A DNA stretch of 64,000 bases from Candidatus Poribacteria bacterium (GTDB lineage: Bacteria; Poribacteria; WGA-4E; JAJDTR01). Position numbers and translations under genes: made by a program. Positions 28,642-60,424 of the stretch are shown one piece after another; position 1 is the stretch's first letter, and every line of letters starts with the position of its first letter. The notes under the pieces were generated by a model. It searched no databases and was not told the DNA's origin. It saw nothing but the letters and a program-made list of their open reading frames with translations. The stretch covers positions 1,472,001 to 1,536,000 of the forward strand of contig CBDCTK010000002.1 in NCBI GenBank assembly GCA_965222225.1, in the 5' to 3' direction.

Positions 28642-28652
28642 GGCGAAATGTC

Positions 28653-45426: not shown

Positions 45427-45456
45427 CCAAAATCGCTTCGGAGAAAGAAGGTCGAA

Positions 45457-46744: not shown

Positions 46745-48667
46745 ATGTTCAAGAAAATCTATGTGCCCGTTGACAATTCGGATCATTCTGATGCGAGCGT
46801 CAGTCTTGCCGTAGCGTTCTCCAAGAAATTTGGGTCGCAACTCGTCGGCTCCCACGTCTACGCGGCAAAGATGCACGACGTGCGATTCAAACAGATGGAG
46901 TACACTCTCCCCGAAGAATATCAGGACGAAGCCGAACTCGAAAAACAGCGCCGGATTCATGACACCCTGATTACGATGGGGCTTCAATTGATCTCCGACT
47001 CTTACCTTGAGGTAATGAAGAAAAAGTGCGTCGAAAATGATATTCCCTTTGAAGCGAAGATGCCGGAAGGCAAGCATTTCATCAAGCTGGCCGAGGACAT
47101 TCAGCAGTGCGATTACGACCTTGTAATAATGGGTGCCCTCGGTATGGGCGCGGTCAAGGACAGCCTGCTCGGCGGCGTCGTGGAGCGTGTTGTGCGGCGC
47201 ATCCAGACAGACACTCTCGTCGTCCGAAATACAGAGGGGATTCTTGACCAACCTGGGCATATCCTCGTCGGGATCGATGGTAGCCCCGAGTCCTTCGCCG
47301 GATTGAAAACAGCCATCCGCATCGGCAAAGCGTTTGACAGGCAAGTAGAAGCAATCGGCGTTTACGACCCTTATCTTCACTATGTCGTGTTCAATTCGGT
47401 GGTCAACGTTCTAACGGAGCGCGCCTCCAAAACCTTTAGATTCAAAGAACAGGAGCAACTGCACGAAGAGGTTATCGACACCGGGCTCGCCAAAATCTAT
47501 CAATCCCATCTGGAGATTGCCCGCACAATTGCCAAGGAAGATCACGGTTACAATCTCAAAATTACCTTGCTGGATGGCAAAGCCTTCGAGAAAGTCCTGC
47601 AATATACCCGAAAGACACAGCCATGGATGCTCGTGCTAGGGCGAATCGGCGTCCACAGCGAGACGGATATGGACATCGGCAGCAACACCGAAAACCTGTT
47701 GCGACTTGCACCGTGTAACGTATTGCTGTCAAGCGCCCGATACGTCCCCAAAATTGATGTTAAAGCCGAGGAGACGGTCGTCTGGACGCAGGAAGCCATG
47801 GATCGAATGGCGAAAGCGCCGCCACAGATACAGGGTATCGCGCGGACAGCCGTCCATCGCTACGCAATTGAACGAGGTCATTCCGTGATTACCGAGAGCG
47901 TGATTGAGCAGGCGATGGACGCCTTCATGCCGGGGCGTTCAGCGGATCGGATGACCAAGGTTGCCAAACAGATTGCTACGCAAACCGTTCTGGATTCGAA
48001 TGCCGTCAAGACCTTTATCTGTGCCGATTGCGGCTACGCAGCACGCGATCAGAAGCCTGTCAAATGCCCCGTCTGCAGCGTGGATGGGGACCACTTTCAG
48101 ATGGTCGACAAAGAATCACTCCGGAAAGTCGCTGACAAAGAAGGCGGCGTGAGTGAAGAACAGACATTCGACGGTCTCCGTCTCCAGTGGTCGGATCAGG
48201 CAAAGAAGGCGTTACGAAATGTACCGCGCGGTTTCATGCGGCGCAATGTCAAAGCGCGAATCGAAAAATCGGCGCGCACCCAGAAAATCAGCACTATAAC
48301 CAATGATTTCGCCATGCGGATTGTCAACGAAAGCATGAATCAGGCGTCCGCAATCCGCGAAGACGCCCCCGAACTTAAAGCCGTTGCCCAGTCCCGTGAA
48401 TCCTCGGATACCTCTCAAGGGGAAACGTTTGAGAGCGCGTTTGAGTGGGCGCCGGAGGCACGCGAACGTTTGAACCTCGTCCCCTCCGGGTTTATGCGAA
48501 ACATCACCCTATCCCGTGTTGAACAGCGCGCTCGAGAAGCGAATCTCACAACAATAAATCTAGAATTTGCCGCGCAGGTGATTGAGGAGGGACGCAGCTT
48601 GGATAACGAAGTCCTCGGCACATACTACCGGCAGGATCTCAGCGTGAATGACTCCAAAACCGAATAG
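46745..48667 (+). CDS. Tandem USP + rubredoxin-like knuckle + three PCP_red-like domains
   Basis: Two USP domains (IYVPVD.S...GALG.G...LLGGV.ERV; ILVGIDGS...IGSNTENL), CADC..CPVC, three W-x3-A-x2-(R/A)-x4-P helical repeats. Confidence 0.82.
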   Translation: MFKKIYVPVDNSDHSDASVSLAVAFSKKFGSQLVGSHVYAAKMHDVRFKQMEYTLPEEYQDEAELEKQRRIHDTLITMGLQLISDSYLEVMKKKCVENDIPFEAKMPEGKHFIKLAEDIQQCDYDLVIMGALGMGAVKDSLLGGVVERVVRRIQTDTLVVRNTEGILDQPGHILVGIDGSPESFAGLKTAIRIGKAFDRQVEAIGVYDPYLHYVVFNSVVNVLTERASKTFRFKEQEQLHEEVIDTGLAKIYQSHLEIARTIAKEDHGYNLKITLLDGKAFEKVLQYTRKTQPWMLVLGRIGVHSETDMDIGSNTENLLRLAPCNVLLSSARYVPKIDVKAEETVVWTQEAMDRMAKAPPQIQGIARTAVHRYAIERGHSVITESVIEQAMDAFMPGRSADRMTKVAKQIATQTVLDSNAVKTFICADCGYAARDQKPVKCPVCSVDGDHFQMVDKESLRKVADKEGGVSEEQTFDGLRLQWSDQAKKALRNVPRGFMRRNVKARIEKSARTQKISTITNDFAMRIVNESMNQASAIREDAPELKAVAQSRESSDTSQGETFESAFEWAPEARERLNLVPSGFMRNITLSRVEQRAREANLTTINLEFAAQVIEEGRSLDNEVLGTYYRQDLSVNDSKTE

Positions 48668-48816
48668 AGGCAATCCTCTCACGCAAGATACAGTGGAGCC
48701 GCCTTAGAGATGACGACCCGTTTCCTGACTCAAATGATTCATCTACGCCGTCAATCTGCGCGTCATTTAACAAGACATTCTGTGCAACCAAGAGTAATGC
48801 GGAAAGGAGATTCAAA

Positions 48817-50514
48817 TTGTTAAATATTCAACCGGGGTACCTTACTCTAGATGAACTGCTTGCAAAACGTCTGTTTCGAATTCCTCATTATCAGCGTGCT
48901 TACTCGTGGGAGCGCAAACACCGTAGGGACATGTTTAAGGATATTAAAAAACTCAGTGACAATCCAACGAGTTTCCATTTCATGTCGACGGTAGTCGGAT
49001 TGCGGCGCCAGACAAAGACAATCGTAACGGACCAGTTTAGCGAGATTGAGGTCGTAGATGGGCAGCAACGCCTGACTACGCTCGTGATTCTACTCAAAGC
49101 AATTGAGAGAAAACTGGATTGTTCCGTGCCCAACGAGAAACGGCTTGGACAAGAACTTCGAGAGCTTCTTGTCAAACAGGACGATGCGAGTCTTATTTTA
49201 CTGCAAACAAATCATGATCGAAGCCAGTATTTTGCCGACTTCCTGAGGTATGGAGCCTGTCCCCCAATCCTCAATGCCCGAACTCTTGCAGATCATGAAT
49301 TATTAAAGGCAATCAGCGAGTGTAATCTCTTCGTTGAAAACTGGAGCGATCGAATTGACCTATTGCGAATAATTAAGAATCAACTGACGTTCATATTTCA
49401 TGAGATTGATGATGAAGCAGCGGTTTATACGGTTTTCGAGGTTCTCAACAATAGAGGACTTAACGTTTCTTGGTTAGATAGACTGAAAAGCATGTTAATG
49501 TCATTAGCCTTTGAGGCCAATAGGGGAAATGTTGACGAACACATAGATGAACTTCACCAAATTTGGGGAAGGATTTACGAGACCATTGGACTGCGGCAAG
49601 AGTTAAACACCGAATCTCTAACCTTTGCTGCAACCCTTAAATCTCAATCTAGACGGAGCTCAGCTTTTGGCGAGGAAAGGGCTGTGGAAAGCCTTATGAC
49701 TCAGTGCGACGGAAACGCCTCCAAAGCTATTGCAACGTCGAAGTGGCTGCTGAAGGTCATCTCTGTCGTCAAACGGTTTTTGGAGGATATGCAACGTTCC
49801 AGAGAAGCCGTAACCAAAATTTCGCAAGCGAGATTGCTCGCTGTAGCAATTATCTTGAAAGATTTTTCTTGTAATGAAGAAAAAGAACTCCTCGATCAGT
49901 GGGAGAATACGACATTCCGTATATTCGGTCTATGTAGAAAAGATGCCCGCACAGGCGTCGGCGATTACGTTAGACTAGCTTGGGACATATTGAACGATGC
50001 AAATTTAAATGCTAGGCACGTTTCGGAAAGAGTGACGCAAATCGGTGAGGGGAAAGATCGAAACGTTGAATCGGCTCTTCTTGAACTCGAAAATAGCAAT
50101 TGTTACGAAGGATGGCAGGACCAACTCAGATACCTGCTGTATCGCTATGAAGAACATCTGGCAGAACAGCAGGGCCAGAGATTTCGTAGTGAACAATGGA
50201 ATCGCATTTGGCAAGAATCGGCTGCTAAATCAATAGAACATATATTTCCACAGTCAAGAGGCAGTCAGGAACCGCTAGAAAACCAAGAAGGTGTTTTCGT
50301 CCATAGACTTGGAAATCTGCTACTTTTACCGCCTAGTCTTAATTCAGCGCTTCAAGATAGAGAACCAAGAGCAAAAGTGAACGACTATAGAGATACGGGA
50401 CTTCTCATTGCTGCTGAAGTAACACGAACTATAGAGCGGGACGGATGGGGTTTGGAACAAATCATGGAGCGCGAACAACGGCTGCTTAATTGGATTCGGT
50501 GTGAATGGGAGTAG
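48817..50514 (+). CDS. GmrSD-like (DUF262 + DUF1524/HNH) modification-dependent nuclease
   Basis: IP.YQR.YSW, VVDGQQRLTT, FEVLNNRG, IEHIFPQ, LGNLLLL...N. Confidence 0.85.
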   Translation: MLNIQPGYLTLDELLAKRLFRIPHYQRAYSWERKHRRDMFKDIKKLSDNPTSFHFMSTVVGLRRQTKTIVTDQFSEIEVVDGQQRLTTLVILLKAIERKLDCSVPNEKRLGQELRELLVKQDDASLILLQTNHDRSQYFADFLRYGACPPILNARTLADHELLKAISECNLFVENWSDRIDLLRIIKNQLTFIFHEIDDEAAVYTVFEVLNNRGLNVSWLDRLKSMLMSLAFEANRGNVDEHIDELHQIWGRIYETIGLRQELNTESLTFAATLKSQSRRSSAFGEERAVESLMTQCDGNASKAIATSKWLLKVISVVKRFLEDMQRSREAVTKISQARLLAVAIILKDFSCNEEKELLDQWENTTFRIFGLCRKDARTGVGDYVRLAWDILNDANLNARHVSERVTQIGEGKDRNVESALLELENSNCYEGWQDQLRYLLYRYEEHLAEQQGQRFRSEQWNRIWQESAAKSIEHIFPQSRGSQEPLENQEGVFVHRLGNLLLLPPSLNSALQDREPRAKVNDYRDTGLLIAAEVTRTIERDGWGLEQIMEREQRLLNWIRCEWE

Positions 50515-50645
50515 TGGCAAATTTGGATCGACCAAGCGGTATGGGGATTGCAAACTGCTCTAGTTTGGTTCTCAGATTTGTACCGCATTCCCCGCCTTAG
50601 CCGGAATTATCCGCGAATAGGGATTCAAGGAGGAATAGGTATTTC

Positions 50646-51365
50646 ATGAAAGATACTGAGGTGATTGAAAGATTCGTAGCACACCTAGCGCAACATGGCC
50701 ACCAAGGTCTCAAGGTGGATGAAATCCCGGACGAGAAGGAACGAAATTTACCCGAGATTGATGCAATTGCTGGTCCGTTTGCTATCGAACACACGAGTAT
50801 CGACACAGTCCCACATCAACGCCGGAATGACGATTGGTTTCTGCAAGTCATCGAAGGGCTTGAACAAGAGCTCTCCGGCGGACTCCCGTTTCACCTTGTT
50901 GTTATACTTGAATATGAGGCCGTTACCAAAGGACAAGACTGGAAGCGAATTCGCCAAGCACTCAAGAACTGGGTTGTTGATCGAGCGAAATACTTGCCAG
51001 ATGGGGACCATATTCTTGATGGCGTTTTTGGCATTCCGTTCAAACTTCATGTGCACAAGGATACTGATTTGCCTTCACATCTTTTTTTTGTCCGTTCTAC
51101 TCCTGAGGATGACACCCTTTCCGAGCGCGTCGGAAAGCAGCTTGATAAAAAGGCGAAGAAACTAGCCAAATATCAAACGAAAGGAAAGACGACATTACTT
51201 CTCGTTGAGAGTTCTGATTTTGCTCTTATGAGCAGAACAATGATGCGAGGTACGATAAAAGAAACGTACGTAGGTGGTAATCTGTCTGGAGTAGACCAAA
51301 TTTGGTACGCCGAAAGATTTGACGAGGATAATATCAAGTTCACGGATTTCACCTCCCTTCTGTGA
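50646..51365 (+). CDS. Hypothetical protein, possible PD-(D/E)xK-like nuclease
   Basis: PD...ID....AIEHT pattern; GGAGG RBS. Confidence 0.55.
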   Translation: MKDTEVIERFVAHLAQHGHQGLKVDEIPDEKERNLPEIDAIAGPFAIEHTSIDTVPHQRRNDDWFLQVIEGLEQELSGGLPFHLVVILEYEAVTKGQDWKRIRQALKNWVVDRAKYLPDGDHILDGVFGIPFKLHVHKDTDLPSHLFFVRSTPEDDTLSERVGKQLDKKAKKLAKYQTKGKTTLLLVESSDFALMSRTMMRGTIKETYVGGNLSGVDQIWYAERFDEDNIKFTDFTSLL

Positions 51366-51388
51366 ACGCCATGAAACCTAGCAAAGTT

Positions 51389-51462
51389 CGTAGGGTGCGA
51401 ATCGTCGATTTCCCCTCTTGCTGCGATCAAACGAGAGGATAACGAGTGCGATAGAGATCCCA
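51389..51462 (+). repeat. Modular intergenic repeat, copy B
   Basis: GTAGGGTGCGA ... GCGATCAA.CGAGAGGATAACGAGTGCGATAGAGATCC. Confidence 0.65.
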
Positions 51463-51530
51463 CCATCCGTTTTTCCGCGAGCGATGTTTCGCACTGCGTT
51501 CCAAGTAACACGCCTTATTCTCCGTTGCGC

Positions 51531-51559
51531 TTGCATCTAGCCACCCCTTGTGCTAACAT
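51531..51559 (+). promoter_or_regulatory. Putative sigma70 promoter for the BMP gene
   Basis: TTGCAT-17 bp-TAACAT with extended TG. Confidence 0.45.
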
Positions 51560-51616
51560 TTCAACTGGACTACAACACCTTCACACATGACTATCAACTA
51601 CTGAGAAGGAAAAAAT

Positions 51617-52681
51617 ATGGGCAATTTGAACATAACGAAATGTCTTCCCGGATTTTTATTAGCGTTATTCTGTGTCGGAATCTCCGGCTGCGATCTTATC
51701 CAGCAAGCAATCCTTTCGGACCTGCCGGACGACGCCGATGCCGTCCTCCTTCGCGTAACCATGATCTATCCAAGAGATTGCATTGGAGACGCCGGTTACT
51801 GTGATAGTTTCCATATCGGAGTAAGAACGGCTGAGGCAGAACTCGGGATTAGCCTCACCGAGGTTGCCGGAATGGAGAGCGACCCGGCAGCAACAGAAAT
51901 GCAGTTAAGGGAAGCCGCTCAAAACTCAGACCTCGTTCTAGCGGCAGGTTACCAAATGGGAGCGCCCCTTGCGCGAGTGGCACCGGAATTTCCCGATGTG
52001 AGATTTGCGATTTTTGATGTCGTCCTTGATATTCCGAATGTTGCCTCCATCAATTACAAGGCAAACGAAGGCTCGTTTCTCGTCGGCGCGATCGCCGCGT
52101 TGAAATCTGAAAGTGGGAAAATAGGCTATATTGGCGGAGCCGATGTTCCCTTACTACACGAATTTGAAGCCGGTTACATCGCAGGAGTTAACGCCGTCAA
52201 TCCTGACGCTGGAGTTACGGTCGAATACATCAGCGAGGATGAAACCGGTTTTGGCATGCCGGACAGAGCAAAAGAGATAGCGTTAGCCCAATATGCAAGT
52301 GGAATTGATGTCATCTACGTTGCTGCGGGCGGATCCGGTAACGGAGTGCTCGAAGCTGCACGAGAGCAGCAAAAATTTGTCATTTGGGTTGACTCCAACG
52401 GCAATTACCTCGAACCCGGCATAGTTTTGACGAGCATGGTCAAAGAACTTTCAGATTCCGTCATCAAAGTCATCAGTGAGACCGCCGCCGGGACTTTTGT
52501 AGGGGGAGTACGATACCTCGGACTCGAAGATGGTGGAGTCAGCTATGCCGTAGATGAACACAATCAGTCTCTATTTTCCCACGAGATTCTAGATCGTGTT
52601 GAATCGTTGAAAGCGCAAATCGTTGCGGGCGAAATTATCGTTCCCGATCGCATCATTCTTCCGCGCGAACAAAGCCAATGA
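51617..52681 (+). CDS. BMP-family (nucleoside-type) ABC substrate-binding lipoprotein
   Basis: Lipobox ISGC, EGSFLVG.IAA, IGYIGG, DVIY.AAG.SG.G, LTSMVK. Confidence 0.9.
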   Translation: MGNLNITKCLPGFLLALFCVGISGCDLIQQAILSDLPDDADAVLLRVTMIYPRDCIGDAGYCDSFHIGVRTAEAELGISLTEVAGMESDPAATEMQLREAAQNSDLVLAAGYQMGAPLARVAPEFPDVRFAIFDVVLDIPNVASINYKANEGSFLVGAIAALKSESGKIGYIGGADVPLLHEFEAGYIAGVNAVNPDAGVTVEYISEDETGFGMPDRAKEIALAQYASGIDVIYVAAGGSGNGVLEAAREQQKFVIWVDSNGNYLEPGIVLTSMVKELSDSVIKVISETAAGTFVGGVRYLGLEDGGVSYAVDEHNQSLFSHEILDRVESLKAQIVAGEIIVPDRIILPREQSQ

Positions 52682-52783
52682 TCTCATCATCGTTAGGGGA
52701 GGCATCTGTGCCTATCCTAACGGTGGCATGAGCAACGAATTCAAAAGCGAGAAAAACCTACATTTCAAAATGAAGATTTCTCA

Positions 52784-53002: not shown

Positions 53003-53080
53003 TATCAGATTGCGTTTCTCGCAATCACGTATCACGCAGAAGTTCCAAGCCACACATGTCTCAATTAAACGGAGGTCCTG

Positions 53081-53932
53081 GTGTCCAACAAATCCCCGCT
53101 GAATTTTGCCGAAATCCTTGTGTGCCTTGATGGTTCAAAATATTCTCGGGCGGCGGTGGAATATGCCACGCAAATTGCCGTTGAACACGACGCCTCACTT
53201 ACGGGTGTCGGTGTGATTGATCTTCCCGGTATCCTACGCGCAAGCGGTCCTGCTCCGATTGGAGCTATGCGCTCCGGCGATCTCACTGAGCAACACCACG
53301 TCAAAGAGGCGCAGGGTCTCGTCTCCCGAATCCTAAAAGACTTTGAGAAAACCTGTCGTGAAAAAGATATTCGCCATACCATCCATTCAGAAGCCGGCAG
53401 CCCGTTTCGGGAAATTATTGAGGAATCAAAATTTCACGACTTTATTATTCTCGGGCAAAAAACCTTTTTTCGACACGGCATCGGACGCGAGCGAGGTAAC
53501 ACTCTACATCGGATCCTGCACAACGGATTAACAGCAGTTTTTGCCGTCCCCGATTCTGCCAGAGAGATTAAAAAAGTGCTTGTTGCATACGATAACAGCG
53601 TCCAAGTCACTAAAGCAATTCAGATGTTTCTACTGCTCCACATCTGGAATCAGTGCGACATTACTCTTCTGAATATCAATAACGATGCGGCTCGCGCAAA
53701 GCAATTGCTCAATAGGCTTGGCGATTACGTGGGAAGATACGGAATACAGCCGACAAAAGTACACTTGAAAGGACGTCCGGATAAAGTCGTTCTGTCGTAT
53801 ATCCGAGAACATGAAATCGACCTACTCGTTATGGGGGCGTATGGCAAACGAACCGCGTCGGAGTTTGTCGTCGGTAGTGTGACGAAATCCCTTGTTACTC
53901 AGGCAGGTATTCCGCTGTTTATTTATCATTAA
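53081..53932 (+). CDS. Tandem universal stress protein
   Basis: ILVCLDGS, VLVAYD.S, DLLVMGAYG...VGSVT. Confidence 0.9.
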   Translation: MSNKSPLNFAEILVCLDGSKYSRAAVEYATQIAVEHDASLTGVGVIDLPGILRASGPAPIGAMRSGDLTEQHHVKEAQGLVSRILKDFEKTCREKDIRHTIHSEAGSPFREIIEESKFHDFIILGQKTFFRHGIGRERGNTLHRILHNGLTAVFAVPDSAREIKKVLVAYDNSVQVTKAIQMFLLLHIWNQCDITLLNINNDAARAKQLLNRLGDYVGRYGIQPTKVHLKGRPDKVVLSYIREHEIDLLVMGAYGKRTASEFVVGSVTKSLVTQAGIPLFIYH

Positions 53933-54127
53933 CTGGAATCAATGAATTCTTTTCCAACCAGATAAGTTGCGATTGCGCAATTTCGACGGTCATGTGTGTC
54001 TCGGGAATAGAATCGGGATACGATGACCGAAACGAAACAATAAAGACTTGTCAATGACCTCAGTTACGAGTAGCACACATGCGGCGCCAGCCTTCAGGGG
54101 GCAGTCAAGGATTAAGCATCGTAAACC

Positions 54128-55021
54128 ATGAAAACGTACAGCGACCTCCCTAGCGATGGCGGATCTGGCATCATCGGGCAGGTGACTCAACAAGTCAGTC
54201 GCACCCAAAAACGGTTAGAATCGATACACCATACCGTTGCCATCATGAGCGGGAAGGGCGGTGTGGGCAAAAGTTCGATAACGGCGAATCTTGCCTCGGC
54301 CCTCGCTTTGCGGGGCAACAGCGTTGGCGTACTCGACGCCGACATCAACGGGCCCTCGATCGCCAAGATGATAGGCGTGAGAGGCATGAAAGTTGATTAC
54401 GGCGCGGACGGTGTTAAACCCGTTATTAGTCCGCTAGGGGTCAGAGTCATGTCAATGGATCTGTTTCTGAAGGACGACGAAACGCCAGTCTTATGGGAAG
54501 CCCAAACACAGAAAGATGCGTTCACTTGGCGCGGAACCATGGAGGTGTCTGCGCTCCGCGAGTTTCTGTCTGACACCGAATGGGGAGTTCTTGACTACCT
54601 CCTGATCGATCTGCCACCAGGCACCGATCGATTGCCGAATTTAATCGATTTGTTACCGACACTCGGCGGCACGGTCGTCGTCACAATTCCTTCTAGCGTC
54701 TCGCAACTTGTCGTCAAGAAATCGTTGACGATGGCGAAGAAATTGCTCAACACGCCGGTCGTGGGCATCGTCGAAAATATGGCGGCATACGTTTGCGCAG
54801 ATTGCGGGAAAACTGAAGACCTGTTTCCTACAGGCAATACGGAAGAGATGGCGCGTCAATTTGGCGTCTCACTACTCGGCAGAATACCGTTCGATCCGCG
54901 TATCTCTACGGCTGCAGATAACGGTAACGCATTCGTGGAAAAATTTGCTGACACCCCGGCAGGCGCTGGCTTGACGAAAATAGCGGCGAAAATCGAATCC
55001 TTCTTCAACCACGAAACTTAA
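54128..55021 (+). CDS. mrp: Mrp/NBP35 (ApbC) Fe-S carrier P-loop ATPase
   Basis: SGKGGVGKS, DADINGPS, WRG, DLPPGT, VENM..YVCADC. Confidence 0.9.
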   Translation: MKTYSDLPSDGGSGIIGQVTQQVSRTQKRLESIHHTVAIMSGKGGVGKSSITANLASALALRGNSVGVLDADINGPSIAKMIGVRGMKVDYGADGVKPVISPLGVRVMSMDLFLKDDETPVLWEAQTQKDAFTWRGTMEVSALREFLSDTEWGVLDYLLIDLPPGTDRLPNLIDLLPTLGGTVVVTIPSSVSQLVVKKSLTMAKKLLNTPVVGIVENMAAYVCADCGKTEDLFPTGNTEEMARQFGVSLLGRIPFDPRISTAADNGNAFVEKFADTPAGAGLTKIAAKIESFFNHET

Positions 55022-55161
55022 CATTTATGCTGGGTACTGTAAGCGAGTTTGCAATATGCAGGTGTGTAAGTCATGAGAACGCTGATAGGAACCATTCAAT
55101 GGAATGTCGGCGAGCAGATACATCTTGATCGAATTATTAATTTCGATGCGGACACATTCTT

Positions 55162-55410
55162 AGAACCTGTTTGAAAAGTACAGTTTGTAGGGTGCGATCA
55201 ACCGACTGATTAAGGAGGGCGATAGAAATCCCCTCAAGCGAGTGGATAGCGAGTGCGATAGCTATATGTAGGGTGCGCACTGCGCACCAGCCTTTGGGGT
55301 TGATTTCTTGTAGGGTGCGATCAACTGAGCGAATAGCGACTGCGATCAAGGGAATGGATAATGACCGCGATAGAATTCCCATAGAAATCCCGTGCGATAG
55401 AGATCCTAAG
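55162..55410 (+). repeat. Modular intergenic repeat, copy C (longest; includes GTAG-REP-like hairpin)
   Basis: Three GTAGGGTGCG words; hairpin GGTGCGCA-C-TGCGCACC; 50 bp identical to 62085-62134. Confidence 0.8.
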
Positions 55411-55425
55411 TGAACGAGAGGAAAA

Positions 55426-55890
55426 ATGTGCGAGTTAGCGAATAGCCTCGCTAAATTGAAGCATCTCTGTCAAAACGGACGAGTATCAGAACATACATTC
55501 TACGAAATAGCTCATCCATTAGCTGAAAAACGATATGAGCCACTGCGGGTGTTCTTGATAGAGATGTTGGAGTCTCCGAACGCTACATGTCGTCTGAATG
55601 CAGTGCATTTGTTGGGTGGTCATTGGCACGAGAAACCAGACATTGGAGAAAAGTTAGTCGAATTGCTAACAAATGATCCCAACGATGATATCCGCATGCT
55701 GTCCGCGAGCGCACTATCCCATATCAAATATGTTGAATCGCGGGAAATACTGCATCAGTGCGCCAATGACCCGAAGCAGGCATCCTTTGTCAAAGAAAGC
55801 TGCGTTGACGCCATTCGTGTCCTTGATGGAACTTCACAAGTTCAAATCCTTCGCGAACAACTAAATCAGATTGGGAATGAGGGTGGGTAA
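55426..55890 (+). CDS. HEAT-repeat protein
   Basis: R..AV.LLG, DP..DIR..SA.AL repeats. Confidence 0.7.
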   Translation: MCELANSLAKLKHLCQNGRVSEHTFYEIAHPLAEKRYEPLRVFLIEMLESPNATCRLNAVHLLGGHWHEKPDIGEKLVELLTNDPNDDIRMLSASALSHIKYVESREILHQCANDPKQASFVKESCVDAIRVLDGTSQVQILREQLNQIGNEGG

Positions 55891-55947
55891 AAACAAGTCA
55901 CTCGTAGTAAGTACGTATTCATCAACTTCCGCTCTTGGAGTCAACTA

Positions 55948-56460
55948 ATGAAATTCCTATGCCTTGAATGCAACACAGCCATGAAATTCAAAGAATCGAA
56001 AACGCCCGAAGGTGGCACGTTGACCGCAATATTCGAGTGCCCGGACTGCTTTGGGGAATTCGCAATGCACATGAACCCGTGGGAAACCCAAATGCTCAAG
56101 TCACTTGACGTTCAGCTCGGTGGAAAAAGTGAAAATGCACCCCCGATGCAGATGGTGCGTTCCTTTCTGAGTGACCAGAAGGAAGGAACGCTCTCATCAA
56201 GTCACACTCCCCAGCCAGCCTCGGAATCGGAAGGTGGTAGATGTCCCTTTACATCGGTGGTTGCCGACGCGTTTCAGGATCAGAGGTCGGAACCTGCCGA
56301 TCTCGTATGGACCGAAGAAGCACTTGAACGCCTGAATCGAATTCCGAGTTTTGTCCAATCAATGGCTAAAGCCGGAATTGAAGATTTCGCCCGCGAAAAA
56401 GGGATAGCAAAAATTACTGCCGAGGTGATGGACACTGCGCGCGGCAACTTCGGCATGTAG
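55948..56460 (+). CDS. Zn-ribbon + PCP_red-like domain protein
   Basis: MKFLCLEC...ECPDC, CPF motif, C-terminal WTEEALERLNRIPSFV...IE.FARE.G...IT. Confidence 0.8.
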   Translation: MKFLCLECNTAMKFKESKTPEGGTLTAIFECPDCFGEFAMHMNPWETQMLKSLDVQLGGKSENAPPMQMVRSFLSDQKEGTLSSSHTPQPASESEGGRCPFTSVVADAFQDQRSEPADLVWTEEALERLNRIPSFVQSMAKAGIEDFAREKGIAKITAEVMDTARGNFGM

Positions 56461-56516
56461 CGCCGTGACCCGGATGAAATACGAGAGTGCCCTCTGGTTT
56501 CACGTTCCACCGATTT

Positions 56517-57008
56517 ATGCGCATATTCGTCGAACTCATCATACGTTGGATTCACCTTGTTGCCGCAATCGTTTGGCTAGGTGGAATCTTTTTTTCCGTG
56601 AGCATCGCATCGCCGATGCTAAGGAAGCATTTGCCTGCTTTCGAAGGCATCCGGCACACCGTAGCAATTCGGAATCGCCTGCGTCACGTAATCCGTTTCA
56701 CTATCCATATTCTACTGATCACGGGTGCGATGAATGTCTTCATCGTTGGTCTGAACACGCAGATGAATTTCCCGCAGAACTACGCCATCGCCTTTGTAGC
56801 GAAACTCGCCTTTGTCGGATTGATGACGCTGTTCCATAGTCTGCATATTGCCGTTTTCAACAGGCGCATGGAAACTGCATCGACCAACCCGAATGTTAAT
56901 GAGTTAGAGGTTGTGAGACTGCAGCGGCTGACGGACGGATGCGGTATCATTGCACTGCTAATTGGTCTCATCGTCCTGGCCCTTTCCTTGCGATTGGATG
57001 CAGGGTAA
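56517..57008 (+). CDS. CopD-like / DUF4149-like 4-TM membrane protein
   Basis: RWIHLVAAIVWLGG, LLITG, KL...LH. Confidence 0.7.
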   Translation: MRIFVELIIRWIHLVAAIVWLGGIFFSVSIASPMLRKHLPAFEGIRHTVAIRNRLRHVIRFTIHILLITGAMNVFIVGLNTQMNFPQNYAIAFVAKLAFVGLMTLFHSLHIAVFNRRMETASTNPNVNELEVVRLQRLTDGCGIIALLIGLIVLALSLRLDAG

Positions 57009-57074
57009 TGGATTGGGCGCTGGAATCCCGATTCGCAAAGATGGAAAGATTGGATTGGCAGGAAGTCTGGAAAA

Positions 57075-58376
57075 ATGGAAACTAAAGTCCAAGCCGTCTC
57101 ATGGAATATTACGCGGCTATGCAATCTCAAATGTGAGCACTGTTATCTGCCCGCCGGATTTGTAGATACCAACGATTTTCCGACCGGCTACTATCGGGAT
57201 GCAGAGTTGACACAGTCCCAATGCTTCCGCGTGATTGATGAGATTGCCGAAATCAATCCCAACATCCTACTGATTCTCACAGGCGGCGAACCATTGTTGC
57301 GTCCCGACATACTGGAAATCTCTGAGTATGCCGCGCAAACCGGATTCTTAGTCGTGATGGGTACCAACGGGGCGTTGCTGAACGATGAGGTAGTTCTGCG
57401 GATGAGCGACCACGGTGTGAGTGGTGCAGGGATTAGCTTGGATGCGGTGGATGCAGTTAATCACGACAGGTTCAGGGGTATGGAAGGTGCCTATGAAGCC
57501 ACGATGTACGGGATTGAAGCGCTGAAACGCGCCAATCTGGACTTTCTGGTGCAAACCTCGGTGACGCGCTGGAATTACGATGAAATTCCTCAGATTGTTG
57601 AGTTCGCTTATCAATTGGGCGCCAAGGTCATTAATATCTACTTCCTCGTCAAAACAGGGCGCGGAAAGACGGTCATGGACATCACGCCGTCGCAGTACGA
57701 GAAGCTGCTCTCGAAGCTTTTTGAGCTACAGGCGGAATATCGGGGCAAAATGCTCGTCGCGGCGAAATGCGCACCCCACTACAAGCGCGCAATTTACGAG
57801 CAACAGTCCGATTCGCCGTTTCTGCAAGCCTATCCGAGCGGCACATGCCCTTGCGGGATCTACTATTGCCGTATCACGCCCGAAGGCGATTTGACGCCGT
57901 GTCCATACATGCCTGTCAGCGTCGGCAATCTGAAAGACGAGAGTTTTGCAGAATTATGGAACAAATCGAAAGTTTTTCAAGACCTGAGAAATCGTCAGCT
58001 ATTGGAAGGGAAATGCGGCGCGTGTGAGTTTCGTGATGTTTGCGGTGGTTGCCGTGCGCGCGCCTACGCCGCTACGGGGAACTACCTTGCCGAGGATACG
58101 TCGTGCGAGTATCAACCGGGGCAATACGGCAGCCAGACTATCAGTTTTGAGAAGACGACACCCTTCGCGGCGGAGGTAGACTATGAATTGCGCTGGACAG
58201 ATCTAGCGCAGAAGAGATTAAAGCGTGTTCCCTCCTTCGCGCGAGGGATGGTTATCAAAAGCGTCGAAAAGTACGCGCGCGAACACGATTACCGCGAAAT
58301 CACGCCCGAAACGATGAAGGCGGTCAAAGAACGGTTCGACAAAACGGGGATTCCCTCATTCCGCCCTCGCCGTTAG
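57075..58376 (+). CDS. AhbD/NirJ-like radical SAM/SPASM protein with C-terminal PCP_red-like domain
   Basis: WNIT.LCNLKCEHC, TGGEPLLR.D, CAPH, SPASM C..G...C...G..PCPY...GKC..C....CGGCRARAY...C, then WTD.A..RL.RVPSF. Confidence 0.85.
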   Translation: METKVQAVSWNITRLCNLKCEHCYLPAGFVDTNDFPTGYYRDAELTQSQCFRVIDEIAEINPNILLILTGGEPLLRPDILEISEYAAQTGFLVVMGTNGALLNDEVVLRMSDHGVSGAGISLDAVDAVNHDRFRGMEGAYEATMYGIEALKRANLDFLVQTSVTRWNYDEIPQIVEFAYQLGAKVINIYFLVKTGRGKTVMDITPSQYEKLLSKLFELQAEYRGKMLVAAKCAPHYKRAIYEQQSDSPFLQAYPSGTCPCGIYYCRITPEGDLTPCPYMPVSVGNLKDESFAELWNKSKVFQDLRNRQLLEGKCGACEFRDVCGGCRARAYAATGNYLAEDTSCEYQPGQYGSQTISFEKTTPFAAEVDYELRWTDLAQKRLKRVPSFARGMVIKSVEKYAREHDYREITPETMKAVKERFDKTGIPSFRPRR

Positions 58377-58483
58377 CTTCTTGAAAAGTGGGATCGGCGA
58401 TCATCAAATCGCCGCTTAGCCTTCTAACCGCGCACAAGTATTTTGTGTTTCACGCCTAATGTGAGCATAAAGGAGAACAAACA

Positions 58484-58897
58484 GTGAGTACCCAAACCAA
58501 AATTGAACAACGCCTATCCGCCGTTGAAAATCGCTTGAATCGGCTCGAGGATCTTTTGATTGGTATCAGTCAAAAACTGGACCGGAAACCCCCGCAAACG
58601 GAAATAAACGAAAAGAAGGGGGAAGTGCTCAAGGAATGGGTCACGGATTACGTTTCAATGCGGCTACAACAACTTGTGCCGGAGACCTGCGACCATCCCG
58701 CTGAAGCCAACCTAAGCGAAGGTCCCTTTCTTGACAACACCACGACACGTTGCACTGAAGAGGTCGTCCATCGTGTCAAACGCATTCCCATCCCGTTTGT
58801 TCGCGAAATGGTTGTGCAGCGAGTCGCCGAGAATGCGCGAAACGCCGACGTAGACGTGGTCGACATTGAGTTCTTTGAGAAAGCCGCTACCTTTTGA
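58484..58897 (+). CDS. Coiled-coil + PCP_red-like small protein
   Basis: AAGGAG RBS; N-terminal coiled coil; CTEEV..RVKRIPIPFVREMV...V.E.AR. Confidence 0.7.
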   Translation: MSTQTKIEQRLSAVENRLNRLEDLLIGISQKLDRKPPQTEINEKKGEVLKEWVTDYVSMRLQQLVPETCDHPAEANLSEGPFLDNTTTRCTEEVVHRVKRIPIPFVREMVVQRVAENARNADVDVVDIEFFEKAATF

Positions 58898-59015
58898 CAG
58901 TGCAAAGCTACAGAGGAGTTTCCTCTACCGCATTTCCATTTGGAGGATTTTCTTAAAGTCTCAATCTAAACTCCTGTAAGATGAGTGTCGTGCACCGTAC
59001 ATCCGTATTACGCCT

Positions 59016-59396
59016 ATGGAATGGGTACTTAACGTCTTCTCCGAATATATCGAAAACGACTTCAAAAAGCGACTGGGAAATCCGAAGCCCACGGTTGATG
59101 ACCTGTGGGATACGTTCAAGGTGCTTTTTCCGACAACCACCGCGCGGCTGCTAGTTCAAGAACCGGTTGGGAACACCGTCAGATTCAAGGCGCTTGCTTT
59201 CTACCACGCGGATGAGATGGGCCCCCTAATCGAGGATCCGATGGGCTATATCAAAAAGCATTTCGGCGGCGGGAAATTCAAAATTAACTTCTATTGTGGA
59301 ATGCAATTCATTGCCACAATCAACTTCAAACCCGAAGGACCAGAAATCTGGCGCGACTTGCCCGAGCTCCCCGAGTCACATATTCCTGCCGATTAA
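59016..59396 (+). CDS. Hypothetical protein
   Basis: 126-aa ORF in operon position; no recognised family. Confidence 0.65.
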   Translation: MEWVLNVFSEYIENDFKKRLGNPKPTVDDLWDTFKVLFPTTTARLLVQEPVGNTVRFKALAFYHADEMGPLIEDPMGYIKKHFGGGKFKINFYCGMQFIATINFKPEGPEIWRDLPELPESHIPAD

Positions 59397-59415
59397 ATCG
59401 GACACACATTGGATA

Positions 59416-59838
59416 ATGGGCGATCAACAACCACTGACGACATGCCCCGACTGCAATAGCGCGAACATCCAAAGAATCGGAGAAAATGGATATTTCTGCC
59501 TCGATTGTGAATGGGACAACTTGTCGTTTGTCGCTGGCAATAATGATTCGCTAGTTTCCGCGCTCCGGCACGGCGACATCAATGCTCGACGAGAGGCGGC
59601 ACAAGCGCTAATCAACATTGGAGACACCGACCGCGACCTTGCAACTTCAGACGACCTAGCGCCCCTGCTTGAAGCCCTTGATGACAGCGAGGACGATGTC
59701 CGCTACTTCTCCGTCGTCGCCTTAGGAAAGCTCGGAGATACCGCCGCGCTCCCCAAACTAAAAAAGCTAGAACAACACGATTCCTCAGAGCTTGTCAAGC
59801 AAGGCGCCAAAACCGCAATTGAACGCCTCCAAACCTAG
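59416..59838 (+). CDS. Zn-ribbon + HEAT-repeat protein
   Basis: CPDC..CLDC then RREAA.AL..IG and VR...V.ALG.LG; ATG at 59416 preferred. Confidence 0.7.
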   Translation: MGDQQPLTTCPDCNSANIQRIGENGYFCLDCEWDNLSFVAGNNDSLVSALRHGDINARREAAQALINIGDTDRDLATSDDLAPLLEALDDSEDDVRYFSVVALGKLGDTAALPKLKKLEQHDSSELVKQGAKTAIERLQT

Positions 59839-60319: not shown

Positions 60320-60424
60320 CCTCTCGCCATCCGTTAATCCACTCTCGCTTTCTTTTTGAAATTGTCTCAAGCATTATAGTATACTCTCACACGAAACCTG
60401 CACTGTGACGAGGAAACGGAAAAC

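What the first reader, a model, noticed from the sequence alone, without database searches (positions are those of the whole stretch)
46745..59838. PCP_red-tagged protein set (USP-rubredoxin, Zn-ribbon, radical SAM, coiled-coil) with an Mrp ATPase: candidate undescribed cofactor-maturation or sensing system
Seen: the same ~45-aa helical motif (W/C-x3-A/V-x2-R-x4-P...E/R-x-A...IT) occurs six times in four genes: three times in the USP fusion (near 47783, 48188, 48446), and once each near 56308, 58194 and 58751. These genes lie with Mrp/ApbC, a CopD-like membrane protein and an unknown ORF, between SCO and DUF420, two oxidase assembly genes. Known: the motif resembles PCP_red (PF08369), the C-terminal domain of ChlB/BchB of dark protochlorophyllide reductase, whose partner ChlL/BchL is a MinD/NifH-class ATPase, the same class as Mrp. 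No DPOR genes are in the window. Inference: PCP_red is a shared docking tag that recruits clients to the Mrp dimer, or links them into one complex, for Fe-S/heme loading or heme modification for the upstream oxidases.
Basis: partly seen in the sequence, partly recalled or inferred. Interest (0 to 1): 0.88.

Follow-up and report, generated by a model that had tools for sequence, protein, structure and literature searches.

The report
PCP_red-tagged proteins with dedicated Mrp ATPase
A sponge-symbiont (Poribacteria) genome carries a conserved gene set in which a small helical domain otherwise known only from a chlorophyll enzyme is attached to four different proteins beside a dedicated iron-sulfur-carrier ATPase and a heme-type radical SAM enzyme, which looks like an undescribed cofactor-handling module.

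Summary
Pfam PF08369 (PCP_red) matches six times in four genes. Five matches are above the curated cut-off and one is below it. These are the only matches in the 5.7 Mb genome, which has no DPOR.

The organism is a Candidatus Poribacteria bacterium. The set is conserved in three of the four families sampled from its order.

Two sub-modules sit inside an aa3 oxidase, heme a and copper biogenesis cluster:
- A: USP-USP-PCP_red-rubredoxin-2xPCP_red, an Mrp paralog, and Zn-ribbon-PCP_red.
- B: a CopD/HemJ-like membrane protein, AhbD/NirJ-like rSAM/SPASM-PCP_red, coiled-coil-PCP_red-like, a 126-aa unknown, and Zn-ribbon-HEAT.

GmrSD, Nmad3, Bmp and a 239-aa ORF are lineage-specific inserts.

The strongest new result is the Mrp link:
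- An Mrp gene lies directly upstream of the Zn-ribbon-PCP_red gene in 68 of 68 Poribacteria loci and in 31 of 32 distant metagenome loci.
- The paralog co-occurs with the set in 34 of 34 genomes, against 0 of 7 without it.
- Complex prediction gave weak support: 0.39 against 0.00 for controls.

Whether PCP_red itself is the docking element, and which cofactor is handled, is not shown. I found no description in print.

The parts
46745..48667 (+). USP-USP-PCP_red-rubredoxin-like-PCP_red-PCP_red protein (640 aa). PCP_red copies lie at 47783-47914, 48188-48307 and 48446-48568. The rubredoxin-like CxxC...CxxC is at about residues 425-451.
   Evidence: Pfam Usp 116 bits (2 stretches), PCP_red 96.5 bits (3 stretches), RUBY_RBDX 24.6 bits against a cut-off of 26.5. 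Orthologues are 74-88% identical in 6 loci of other genera. It lies within 10 kb of the Zn-ribbon-PCP_red gene in 66 of 68 loci.
53081..53932 (+). Tandem USP protein (283 aa), an accessory member.
   Evidence: Pfam Usp 95.5 bits. Present between the USP fusion and Mrp in 19 of 68 loci.
54128..55021 (+). Dedicated Mrp/NBP35/NUBPL-type P-loop ATPase paralog (297 aa), with a deviant Walker A (SGKGGVGKS) and a CxxC motif (C223, C226).
   Evidence: PF10609 257.5 bits. It is below the equivalog cut-offs of MrpORP (261 against 450) and ApbC (185 against 348). A second, better-scoring Mrp lies elsewhere in the genome. The paralog is in 34 of 34 genomes with the set and 0 of 7 without it. The CxxC is invariant in 24 of 24 aligned sequences.
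55426..55890 (+). HEAT-repeat protein (154 aa) inserted between Mrp and the Zn-ribbon-PCP_red gene. It is lineage-specific.
   Evidence: HEAT_2 61.8 bits. Found in 3 of 68 loci.
55948..56460 (+). Zn-ribbon - disordered linker with an invariant G-G-K/R-C-P-F motif - PCP_red protein (170 aa). The PCP_red copy is at 56308-56442.
   Evidence: PCP_red 62.1 bits. C5, C8, C31, C34, C99-P100-F101 and the PCP_red core are invariant in 38 sequences. AF2 model: beta Zn ribbon, linker with pLDDT below 50, three helices with pLDDT 86. Foldseek matches 2L09, 2KRU and 2YNM_D at rmsd 1.0-2.1 A.
56487..57008 (+). CopD/DUF2269/HemJ-like small membrane protein (173 aa).
   Evidence: All Pfam matches are below cut-off: CopD 29.2 against 32.1, DUF2269 20.7, UPF0093 17.8. 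NCBIfam CopD 33 against 195. It precedes the rSAM gene in 47 of 68 loci, and also where module B has moved elsewhere.
57075..58376 (+). AhbD/NirJ-like radical SAM/SPASM enzyme with a C-terminal PCP_red (433 aa). The PCP_red copy is at 58194-58328.
   Evidence: Radical_SAM 80.3, SPASM 42.2 and PCP_red 55.1 bits. TIGR04545 AhbD 329 bits over positions 2-339 of 339, cut-off 500; NirJ2 304 bits. It is the only AhbD-like gene in the genome.
58484..58897 (+). Coiled-coil protein with a divergent C-terminal PCP_red-like domain (137 aa). The copy is at 58757-58885, with W replaced by C.
   Evidence: PCP_red 21.9 bits, below the cut-off. Its domain is 85-92% identical across families. It follows the rSAM gene in 46 of 68 loci.
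59016..59396 (+). Conserved 126-aa protein of no known family.
   Evidence: No Pfam or NCBIfam match even at E 10. It is 75-83% identical across families. The Atlas gives leads only, to Nitrospirota hypothetical proteins at 0.83.
59416..59838 (+). Zn-ribbon + HEAT/PBS-lyase-like repeat protein (140 aa from the ATG at 59416; the longer ORF from 59296 overlaps the previous gene).
   Evidence: HEAT_2 51.6 and HEAT_PBS 35.5 bits. Orthologues are about 140 aa.
59900..61174 (+). Context: DUF420 (59900-60319) and a chlorite-dismutase-family (ChdC/HemQ-like) gene (60425-61174).
   Evidence: DUF420 156.9 bits and Chlor_dismutase 62.7 bits. It is the only Cld-family gene in the genome.
37414..45726 (+). 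Context: COX2, COX1, CtaA, CtaB, COX3 (two copies), COX4, SCO1 and a conserved 89-aa ORF.
   Evidence: Pfam results. The order COX3-COX4-SCO1-orf89-USP fusion is conserved.

Best explanation
This is a conserved, undescribed cofactor-handling module of Poribacteria, and its parts recur in Nitrospinota, Nitrospirota and other phyla.

I read PCP_red, a roughly 45-residue three-helix domain, as a portable protein-protein interaction domain.

A dedicated Mrp/NBP35-type P-loop ATPase paralog works as a pair with the Zn-ribbon-PCP_red protein. I take this pair to be a carrier plus adaptor for an iron-sulfur cluster.

Through PCP_red contacts the pair is tied to two other proteins:
- An AhbD/NirJ-like radical SAM/SPASM enzyme, which needs up to three [4Fe-4S] clusters. 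It most likely acts on an iron tetrapyrrole, for example oxygen-independent coproheme decarboxylation or a heme modification.
- A USP-rubredoxin protein with three PCP_red copies, which would act as an ATP- or redox-responsive scaffold or regulator.

In Poribacteria the module serves heme supply for the adjacent aa3 oxidase cluster.

Shown:
- the domain identity, and its restriction to this locus;
- conservation of the set;
- the Mrp/Zn-ribbon-PCP_red gene pair across lineages;
- that this Mrp is a separate paralog;
- the AhbD/NirJ-like nature of the rSAM.

Inferred:
- physical binding;
- that PCP_red is the contact element;
- Fe-S as the cargo;
- the tetrapyrrole substrate;
- the regulatory role of the USP fusion.
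For: 1. There are six PF08369 matches, all in 11.1 kb, and none elsewhere in the genome.

2. Each of the six copies is its own conserved orthologous type, 59-92% identical across families.

3. The set is found in 34 of 41 relatives. That covers families f1 to f3 completely and 0 of 7 genomes in f4. In the phylum sample it is in 136 of 151 genomes.

4. Mrp lies directly upstream of the Zn-ribbon-PCP_red gene in 68 of 68 full-flank Poribacteria loci, and 49 of these have a gap under about 150 bases. The same holds in 31 of 32 long metagenome loci whose Zn-ribbon protein is only 33-39% identical to the window's.

5. The genome has a second, better-scoring Mrp (350 against 252 bits). The paralog (56-100% identity) is in 34 of 34 genomes with PCP_red. 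In the 7 of 7 genomes without PCP_red, only the housekeeping type (34-43% identity) is found.

6. In a tree, the Mrps linked to the Zn-ribbon protein group apart from Poribacteria housekeeping Mrps (100/100).

7. Complex prediction (two Mrp copies plus the Zn-ribbon-PCP_red protein) gave weak support. The score was 0.39 (runs 0.39, 0.46, 0.36) against a best control of 0.00. Partner pLDDT was 61-62, and the runs agree in at least 67% of contacts. That mark was reached by 58 of 80 solved complexes and 2 of 110 mismatches. At scores of 0.60 or under, however, it was reached by only 7 of those 80 solved complexes and by both mismatches. My own alignments were used.

8. The same three carrier types (USP, Zn ribbon, rSAM/SPASM) bear 2-6 PCP_red copies in other lineages. 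Of the 120 best of 1860 profile hits, 41 have Usp, 27 have the rubredoxin-like domain, 5 have SPASM and 4 have Radical_SAM. Source names include Nitrospinota and Candidatus Manganitrophus. Atlas clusters are mostly Nitrospirota, Acidobacteriota and Pseudomonadota.

9. Where the locus is split (19 of 68 loci), both halves are kept in the genome and module B stays intact elsewhere.

10. Heme context. The rSAM matches the whole AhbD model at 329 bits. The genome has a HemY/CgoX-like gene, one ferrochelatase and one ChdC-like gene. It has no HemF and no HemN above cut-off. That pattern fits the coproporphyrin pathway, whose last step is done by AhbD or ChdC (review PMC7242693, passages seen).
Against: - No interface was reported. 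The complex score is in the band that the tool calls more often wrong than right unless the guess was likely beforehand.
- No Mrp fusion with the Zn-ribbon or PCP_red was found. The single candidate, P0416, is a frameshift read-through.
- In the distant lineage the Mrp/Zn-ribbon pair has no PCP_red-bearing client within 10 kb. It sits with sulfate-assimilation genes instead. The pair therefore does not need the other tagged proteins nearby, and PCP_red need not be a client tag.
- Across the six paralogous types only P and A are invariant. That argues against one common docking surface.
- The rSAM is below the AhbD equivalog cut-off (329 against 500), so its substrate is unknown.
- The AF2 model of the rSAM was poor (pLDDT 57.9), so nothing can be said about where its PCP_red sits.
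- The contrast between presence and absence in the order is one phylogenetic event, not 41 independent data points.
- Contexts in Nitrospinota and Nitrospirota could not be fetched.
Confidence: 0.4

Rival explanations
1. PCP_red is a tetrapyrrole-contacting or heme-sensing module. On this reading the set is a heme (or coproheme) chaperone and sensor system. The Zn-ribbon-PCP_red protein would bind heme through its invariant Cys-Pro-Phe motif, and the Mrp-type ATPase would drive hand-over to the rSAM enzyme or to the oxidase.
For: - Every context of the domain seen here involves a tetrapyrrole enzyme that also holds Fe-S. These are ChlB/BchB of DPOR, an AhbD/NirJ-like rSAM, a neighbouring siroheme-type sulfite reductase in the distant lineage, and one Haem_oxygenas_2 fusion among the 120 proteins scanned.
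- The G-G-x-C-P-F motif is invariant in 38 of 38 Poribacteria sequences. It is kept in 6 of 8 sequences in an alignment that includes distant homologues.
- The neighbours are a CopD/HemJ-like membrane protein and PBS-lyase-type HEAT proteins.
- The locus lies between CtaA/CtaB and a ChdC-like gene.
Against: - In DPOR the helix that touches protochlorophyllide in trans is BchB 398-420 (PMC12022308, passages seen). PCP_red aligns to BchB 472-523, so the domain is not known to contact the pigment.
- The likeness of Cys-Pro-Phe to heme regulatory motifs is recalled, not tested.
- Mrp/NBP35 proteins are known as Fe-S carriers, not heme carriers (established knowledge).
- No conserved His or Cys lies inside the PCP_red domain itself.
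Confidence: 0.2
2. There is no common complex. On this reading Mrp and the Zn-ribbon protein are a pair in their own right, contacting through the Zn ribbon or the linker. PCP_red is merely a stable helical appendage reused in several unrelated proteins. The locus is then an ordinary oxidase and heme biogenesis operon with an AhbD-type heme synthase and stress proteins.
For: - The pair occurs without the other tagged genes in the distant lineage.
- Modules A and B separate in 19 of 68 loci.
- Only two residues are invariant across the six copies.
- The complex score is weak and no interface was reported.
Against: - All PCP_red copies of a 5.7 Mb genome lie in one locus.
- All four carriers are kept or lost together: 5-6 copies in each of 34 genomes and none in 7.
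- The same three carrier types recur with variable copy numbers in other phyla.
- Each copy is strongly conserved.
Confidence: 0.25
3. Module B is a peptide-modification (RiPP-like) system. The rSAM/SPASM enzyme would modify one of the small conserved proteins (the 137-aa or the 126-aa protein), and PCP_red would serve as the substrate-recognition element.
For: - SPASM rSAM enzymes are often peptide maturases. Weaker NCBIfam matches to PqqE, the mycofactocin maturase and sactipeptide maturases are present.
- Two small conserved proteins of no known family follow the enzyme.
- A PhyH-like dioxygenase sits beside it in 19 of 68 loci.
Against: - The best matches by far are the tetrapyrrole enzymes AhbD (329 bits) and NirJ2 (304 bits), against 128-137 bits for PqqE and the mycofactocin maturase.
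- The small proteins are 69-92% identical across families, with no variable core typical of a precursor peptide.
- The surrounding context is heme and oxidase.
Confidence: 0.05

Closest known systems
C-terminal PCP_red domain of ChlB/BchB, the B subunit of dark-operative protochlorophyllide reductase (PF08369; PDB 2KRU, 2XDQ, 2YNM, 3AEK)
   Same: The sequence family is the same: phmmer gives E 3e-9 to 2XDQ_B residues 455-507. The three-helix fold is the same: Foldseek gives rmsd 1.0-2.1 A to 2YNM_D and 2KRU. It also sits at a C-terminus, in 4 of the 6 copies.
   Different: There is no nitrogenase-like catalytic domain and no ChlN or ChlL in the genome. There are six copies on four unrelated carriers. 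The partner ATPase candidate is Mrp-class rather than NifH-class. The role of the domain in DPOR itself is not stated in the papers I could read.
Asr4154 of Nostoc sp. PCC 7120 (PDB 2L09), a stand-alone PCP_red-like protein from structural genomics
   Same: It is the best structural match (45% identity, rmsd 2.1 A over 51 columns) and it has no DPOR catalytic part.
   Different: It is a single 62-residue domain with no attached Zn ribbon, USP or rSAM. I saw no function in its PDB title.
Mrp/ApbC/NBP35/NUBPL iron-sulfur carrier ATPases, including MrpORP of the Desulfovibrio orange-protein complex
   Same: PF10609 matches at 257.5 bits. The deviant Walker A and the CxxC are both present. The best NCBIfam model is MrpORP.
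   Different: It is below both equivalog cut-offs (261 against 450; 185 against 348). It matches only positions 1-249 of the 365-position MrpORP model. It is a second, divergent paralog beside a housekeeping copy. It is always paired with a Zn-ribbon-PCP_red gene.
AhbD (heme b synthase) and NirJ, radical SAM/SPASM enzymes that act on propionate side chains of iron tetrapyrroles
   Same: It matches the AhbD model end to end (positions 2-339 of 339). It has the CxxxCxxC motif and a SPASM domain.
   Different: The score is 329 bits against a cut-off of 500. It carries an extra 85-residue C-terminal part with PCP_red. No AhbA, AhbB or AhbC context was seen, and the other rSAM matches in the genome are weak (E 2e-11 or worse).
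Client-targeting in eukaryotic Fe-S protein biogenesis: the NBP35-CFD1 scaffold, the CIA targeting complex with a WD40 propeller and HEAT-repeat MMS19, and client tags such as LYR or C-terminal tripeptides (recalled, not from a call)
   Same: It may work alike: an NBP35-type ATPase, adaptor proteins, and a short recognisable element on clients. Here HEAT-repeat genes accompany the Mrp paralog. A beta-propeller gene does so in 43 of 68 loci.
   Different: No homology beyond the ATPase was tested or claimed. The supposed tag here is a folded domain. Binding and cargo are not shown.

Membership tests
PCP_red (PF08369) | Score at or above the curated gathering cut-off of 32.5 bits | tested here: met
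   USP fusion 96.5 bits (3 stretches), Zn-ribbon protein 62.1, rSAM 55.1. The coiled-coil protein reaches only 21.9 bits. It is counted as a divergent copy because of its position, its alignment and its conservation.
PCP_red (PF08369) | Three-helix fold as in the solved domain (2KRU, 2L09) | tested here: met
   In the AF2 model of the Zn-ribbon protein, the domain has pLDDT about 86. Foldseek gives 2L09 rmsd 2.1 A, 2KRU 1.6 A and 2YNM_D 1.0 A, with E-values of 3e-3 to 6e-2.
DPOR subunit B (ChlB/BchB, TIGR01278) | Nitrogenase-like Oxidored_nitro catalytic domain, with ChlN and ChlL partners | tested here: not met
   TIGR01278 scores 52.6 and 40.4 bits against a cut-off of 490, and only over model positions 444-511. 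No PF00148 match in the genome. Only short P-loop matches to PF00142.
Mrp/NBP35/NUBPL P-loop ATPases (PF10609) | Family score above cut-off, deviant Walker A, and a CxxC pair for a bridging cluster | tested here: met
   257.5 bits against a cut-off of 27.1. SGKGGVGKS and C223/C226 are invariant in 24 of 24 sequences. Cluster binding itself cannot be tested here.
ApbC (NF008669) / MrpORP (NF041136) equivalogs | Score above the equivalog cut-off | tested here: not met
   ApbC 184.9 against 348. MrpORP 261.2 against 450, covering positions 1-249 of 365.
AhbD heme b synthase (TIGR04545) | Score above the 500-bit equivalog cut-off | tested here: not met
   329.2 bits over positions 2-339 of 339.
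Radical SAM / SPASM | Radical_SAM and SPASM domains above cut-off, and a CxxxCxxC motif | tested here: met
   80.3 bits against 29.5, and 42.2 against 21.5. C16-x3-C20-x2-C23 is read in the translation. C16 is invariant and C20 and C23 are at least 90% conserved in 38 sequences.
Universal stress protein (PF00582) | Family score above cut-off; ATP-binding motif G-x2-G-x9-G-S/T (motif recalled) | tested here: met
   116.2 bits in 2 stretches. By eye, the motif fits the second USP domain (G-RI-G-VHSETDMDI-G-S) but not the first. ATP binding was not tested.
Coproheme decarboxylase ChdC/HemQ (chlorite dismutase family, PF06778), neighbouring gene | Family score above cut-off; catalytic residues | tested here: inconclusive
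   62.7 bits against 25, but only over profile positions 92-188. Catalytic residues were not examined.

The most novel reading that the evidence does not exclude
PCP_red may be a domain-encoded address label for a dedicated Mrp-type cofactor-delivery ATPase. Proteins that carry it (a radical SAM tetrapyrrole enzyme, a USP-rubredoxin regulator, small adaptors) would be brought to the ATPase, or to each other, for iron-sulfur loading or heme hand-over.

This would be the first folded client or adaptor tag for cofactor insertion in bacteria. It would be spread over Poribacteria, Nitrospinota, Nitrospirota and others. It would also assign a function to the unexplained C-terminal domain of ChlB/BchB in chlorophyll biosynthesis.
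Probability: 0.2. Interest if true: 0.85.

Novelty: new variant of a known kind. Interest (0 to 1): 0.62.

Why it matters
Little is known about how bacterial iron-sulfur carriers of the Mrp/ApbC class choose their clients. PF08369 has no assigned role outside (or even inside) DPOR in the papers I could read.

This locus gives a concrete, testable set:
- one dedicated Mrp paralog;
- one obligate small partner;
- three further proteins that carry the same domain;
- a plausible client with several clusters.

It is conserved in a large group of sponge symbionts that face changing oxygen. Related architectures occur in nitrite and manganese oxidisers.

If the domain proves to be a docking element, it would give a rule for predicting clients from sequence. 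It would also suggest an experiment on the maturation of the chlorophyll enzyme.

Tried and rejected
- **AF2 of the rSAM-PCP_red protein**. Mean pLDDT was 57.9 and the SPASM part fell below 50. It was not usable for seeing whether PCP_red caps the active site, so I dropped it.
- **Complex prediction**. The verdict was weak support (0.39 against 0.00 for controls), with no interface given. I report it with its caveats.
- **Fused Mrp-Zn-ribbon or Mrp-PCP_red forms** (lengths 'longer'). Three hits. The only one with PF10609 (P0416) has a garbled middle and is a read-through artefact. The tool says that finding none is weak evidence.
- **Genome-collection scan for distant Zn-ribbon-PCP_red loci**. 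There were 540 confirmed relatives, but the 80 kept are all Poribacteria (78 by record title; two records are titled uncultured bacterium).
- **Whole-record search of long metagenome contigs for further PCP_red genes**. The records are not held.
- **Role of the BchB C-terminus in DPOR.** I saw passages of PMC13474568, PMC12022308, bioRxiv 10.1101/2020.03.31.018135 and PMC12518044. They give only two relevant facts. A C-terminal tag on BchB perturbs activity, and the trans helix is at residues 398-420. PMC3568340 is not held.
- **Literature.**
  - 'PCP_red' or 'PF08369': 9 papers, none about this set to judge from titles and abstract starts.
  - 'Poribacteria' + 'heme' + 'radical SAM': 3 unrelated papers.
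  - 'Manganitrophus', 'bd-like', 'radical SAM': nothing on the set (passages of PMC9040806).
  - 'bd-like', 'AhbD', 'NirJ', 'universal stress protein', 'Nitrospina': one paper, PMC8115632. In its section 16, USP proteins next to electron-transport operons rise at low oxygen in Nitrospira marina. It makes no mention of PCP_red.
  - Supplements were closed and may hold gene lists that bear on this.
- **Rfam scan of 36000-64000.** No match.
- **Promoter and terminator scans.** Not above shuffles.
- **Atlas search for the 126-aa protein.** Leads only, at 0.83.
- **RiPP reading.** Considered and ranked low (see rivals).

Full report
**1. What is there**

The region 46745-59838 holds the following genes on the + strand (ORF list; Pfam and NCBIfam).

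| Window coordinates | Gene |
|---|---|
| 46745-48667 | 640-aa protein: two USP domains, a PCP_red, a rubredoxin-like CxxC...CxxC element, and two more PCP_red domains |
| 48817-50514 | GmrSD-type restriction enzyme |
| 50646-51365 | 239-aa ORF of no family |
| 51617-52681 | Bmp/PnrA-type binding protein |
| 53081-53932 | Tandem USP protein |
| 54128-55021 | Mrp/NUBPL-type P-loop ATPase |
| 55426-55890 | HEAT-repeat protein |
| 55948-56460 | 170-aa Zn-ribbon protein ending in PCP_red |
| 56487-57008 | Small membrane protein with sub-threshold matches to CopD, DUF2269 and UPF0093/HemJ |
| 57075-58376 | Radical SAM/SPASM enzyme ending in PCP_red |
| 58484-58897 | 137-aa coiled-coil protein with a sub-threshold PCP_red match |
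| 59016-59396 | 126-aa protein of no family |
| 59416-59838 | Zn-ribbon-HEAT protein |

- Upstream lie a bd-like CydA, cytochromes c, COX2, COX1, CtaA, CtaB, two COX3, COX4, SCO1, an 89-aa ORF and an Nmad3 gene.
- Downstream lie DUF420, a chlorite-dismutase-family gene and an ABC-2 permease.

**2.

- Five PCP_red copies pass Pfam's cut-off and the sixth does not (21.9 against 32.5 bits).
- A six-frame search of the whole 5.7 Mb genome finds these six places and no other.
- The genome has no nitrogenase-like catalytic subunit. It has only short P-loop matches to the NifH family, so there is no DPOR.
- The Zn-ribbon protein's domain aligns to the last 50 residues or so of ChlB/BchB in solved DPOR structures, and to the stand-alone Nostoc protein Asr4154.
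- Its AF2 model (mean pLDDT 67.7; domain about 86) superposes on 2L09, 2KRU and 2YNM_D at 1.0-2.1 A.

**3. Organism and conservation**

- Source names and record titles place the window in Candidatus Poribacteria.
- Among 41 relatives, G000 included, 34 carry 5-6 PCP_red matches in the same four proteins. All 7 genomes of a fourth family carry none.
- In a sample of 151 genomes of the phylum, 136 have the two strongest copies. By family: f1 9/9, f2 100/100, f3 25/26, f4 0/4, f5 1/5, f6-f9 0/6.
- Each of the six copies is its own conserved type, 59-92% identical across families. The coiled-coil protein's copy is the most conserved.

**4. Anatomy of the locus**

Comparison used 6 loci of other genera and 68 full-flank loci from the genome collection. 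It gives this core:

COX3-COX4-SCO1-orf89 | USP fusion - (PQQ-like beta-propeller, 43/68) or (tandem USP, 19/68) - Mrp - Zn-ribbon-PCP_red | CopD-like - rSAM-PCP_red - (PhyH-like dioxygenase, 19/68) - coiled-coil-PCP_red - 126-aa protein - Zn-ribbon-HEAT | DUF420 - Cld-like - ABC-2.

- GmrSD and the 239-aa ORF occur in 0 of 68 loci. Nmad3 is in 6, Bmp in 7 and the HEAT gene between Mrp and the Zn-ribbon gene in 3. These are inserts of the window's own lineage.
- In 19 of 68 loci the matched genes stop after the Zn-ribbon gene.
- In three such genomes the second half (CopD-like to Zn-ribbon-HEAT) sits intact elsewhere, among unrelated genes.
- I therefore describe two sub-modules, A and B. They are kept together in genomes but not always in one place.

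**5. The Mrp link**

- The genome has two Mrp-family genes. The one here scores lower (252 against 350 bits).
- Its orthologues (56-100% identity) are found in all 34 genomes that have the PCP_red set. In the 7 genomes that lack the set, only the housekeeping type (34-43% identity) is found.
- Mrp is the gene directly upstream of the Zn-ribbon-PCP_red gene in 68 of 68 Poribacteria loci. The gap is usually under about 150 bases, and in one locus of another genus (L007) the reading frames overlap by 4 bases.
- A metagenome scan used distant homologues of the Zn-ribbon protein. These carry two PCP_red copies and are 33-39% identical to the window's protein. The scan gave 32 loci of at least 9 kb, and 31 have an Mrp gene directly upstream on the same strand.
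- Those loci fall into few lineages, so they are not 31 independent cases.
- In a tree, these Mrps and the Poribacteria paralog lie together, apart from Poribacteria housekeeping copies (100/100). The metagenome organisms' own housekeeping copies were not available, so this is suggestive only.
- The single complex job (two Mrp chains plus the Zn-ribbon-PCP_red protein, my own alignments) returned weak support. The score was 0.39 (runs 0.39, 0.46, 0.36) against a best control of 0.00. Partner pLDDT was 61-62, and the runs agree in at least 67% of contacts.
- That mark was reached by 58 of 80 solved complexes and 2 of 110 mismatched pairs. At scores of 0.60 or under, it was reached by only 7 of those 80 solved complexes and by both mismatches. 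No interface was reported.
- No genuine fusion of Mrp with the partner was found.

**6.

- In the largest distant lineage the pair follows an Rrf2 regulator, a sulfite reductase-TusA fusion, PAPS-reductase-family genes and CysN/C. This is a sulfate-assimilation operon, with no oxidase, rSAM-PCP_red or USP-PCP_red gene within 10 kb.
- The pair is therefore a unit of its own and is not tied to oxidases. A PCP_red-bearing client need not be nearby.
- Across the six paralogous copies only one Pro and one Ala are invariant. That fits type-specific partners better than one shared docking site.
- In DPOR the element that reaches the pigment in trans is a helix at BchB 398-420 (PMC12022308, passages). 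That is upstream of PCP_red (472-523 in 3AEK_B).
- The papers I could read do not say what the last domain does. They say only that a C-terminal tag on BchB perturbs activity (bioRxiv 10.1101/2020.03.31.018135, passage).

**7. The wider family**

- A profile of the six types found 1860 cluster representatives at E up to 0.001, and 576 at up to 1e-10, among 1.84 billion. The best 150 carry 2-6 copies.
- Of the best 120, 41 have Usp, 27 the rubredoxin-like domain, 5 SPASM, 4 Radical_SAM, 4 DUF7130 and 1 Haem_oxygenas_2. The rest have PCP_red only.
- Zn-ribbon proteins with 2-3 copies and rSAM proteins with 2-4 copies occur.
- Source names include Nitrospinota and Candidatus Manganitrophus. Atlas clusters with Usp plus PCP_red are mostly Nitrospirota, Acidobacteriota and Pseudomonadota.
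- So the same three carriers recur with a variable number of copies. That is the behaviour of a modular interaction domain.

**8. The enzyme and the heme context**

- The rSAM matches the AhbD model over its whole length (329 bits, cut-off 500) and NirJ2 next (304 bits). Peptide maturases score far lower.
- It is the only such gene in the genome.
- The genome has a HemY/CgoX-type oxidase (302 bits), one ferrochelatase 13 kb beyond the window end, and one Cld-family gene (in this locus). It has no HemF and no HemN above cut-off.
- This fits the coproporphyrin pathway, whose last step is done by ChdC or by AhbD (PMC7242693, passages).
- An oxygen-independent coproheme decarboxylase is the simplest reading. 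A different side-chain modification of heme cannot be excluded.

**9. The Zn-ribbon protein**

- Four Cys of the ribbon, a G-G-K/R-C-P-F motif in the disordered linker and the PCP_red core are invariant in 38 sequences. The motif survives in 6 of 8 sequences in an alignment with distant homologues.
- From memory, Cys-Pro followed by a hydrophobic residue resembles heme regulatory motifs. A lone Cys could equally be a cluster ligand. Neither idea was tested.

**10. Verdict**

- The feature is real and conserved. As far as my searches show, it is undescribed.
- The best-supported statement is that a dedicated Mrp paralog and a Zn-ribbon-PCP_red protein form a functional pair. In Poribacteria this pair belongs to a larger PCP_red-bearing set with an AhbD/NirJ-like enzyme, inside a heme and oxidase cluster.
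- That PCP_red is the docking tag, and that the cargo is Fe-S, remain hypotheses with concrete tests.

Noticed in passing
window 45780-46607 and 48817-51365: Nmad3 (228 bits), GmrSD (N- and C-terminal domains) and a 239-aa ORF of no family interrupt the conserved operon. GmrSD and the 239-aa ORF are in 0 of 68 related loci, and Nmad3 is in 6. This looks like small defence-type insertions into a housekeeping cluster.
   Followed up: partly
window 55185-55371, 62085-62166 and 51414-51452: Intergenic repeats. A 55-nt unit at 55260-55314 recurs at 62085-62139 (98% identical) and holds a GTGCGCACTGCGCAC palindrome. Units of about 39 nt (GCGATCAA...GCGAT) occur five times. No Rfam match in 36000-64000, which covers all these copies.
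   Followed up: partly
window 26782-34187: A 619-aa bd-like CydA homologue matches only the first 236 of 418 positions of Cyt_bd_oxida_I. It is followed by an M24 peptidase, c-type cytochromes and a cytochrome c with an EB_dh heme domain.
   Followed up: no
window 38317-40164; genomes G013, G016, G019, G022, G025, G028, G031: The family without the PCP_red set has a different COX1: 50-52% identical, matching only from residue 104-111 on. Families with the set have a COX1 that is 73-96% identical from residues 1-7 on. This is one phylogenetic contrast only.
   Followed up: partly
L164:1050-10771 and 16 similar metagenome loci: In a distant lineage the Mrp/Zn-ribbon-2xPCP_red pair ends an operon. 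The operon holds an Rrf2 regulator, a sulfite reductase fused to TusA (with a HEPN match), a PAPS reductase, a glycosyltransferase-family-3 protein, a CysD-like gene and CysN/C.
   Followed up: partly
L007:9484-10767 and L009:14289-15017: Two accessory genes are missing from the window. One is a PQQ/BamB-like beta-propeller between the USP fusion and Mrp (43 of 68 loci). The other is a PhyH-like Fe(II)/2-oxoglutarate dioxygenase after the rSAM gene (19 of 68 loci; two copies in some).
   Followed up: partly
window 46673-47380, minus strand: A 235-aa ORF lies antisense to the start of the USP fusion gene. No evidence for it was sought and it is most likely spurious.
   Followed up: no
protein P0068: One Poribacteria homologue of the Zn-ribbon protein has its Cys-Pro-Phe linker segment duplicated. 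This hints that the motif is a functional unit.
   Followed up: no
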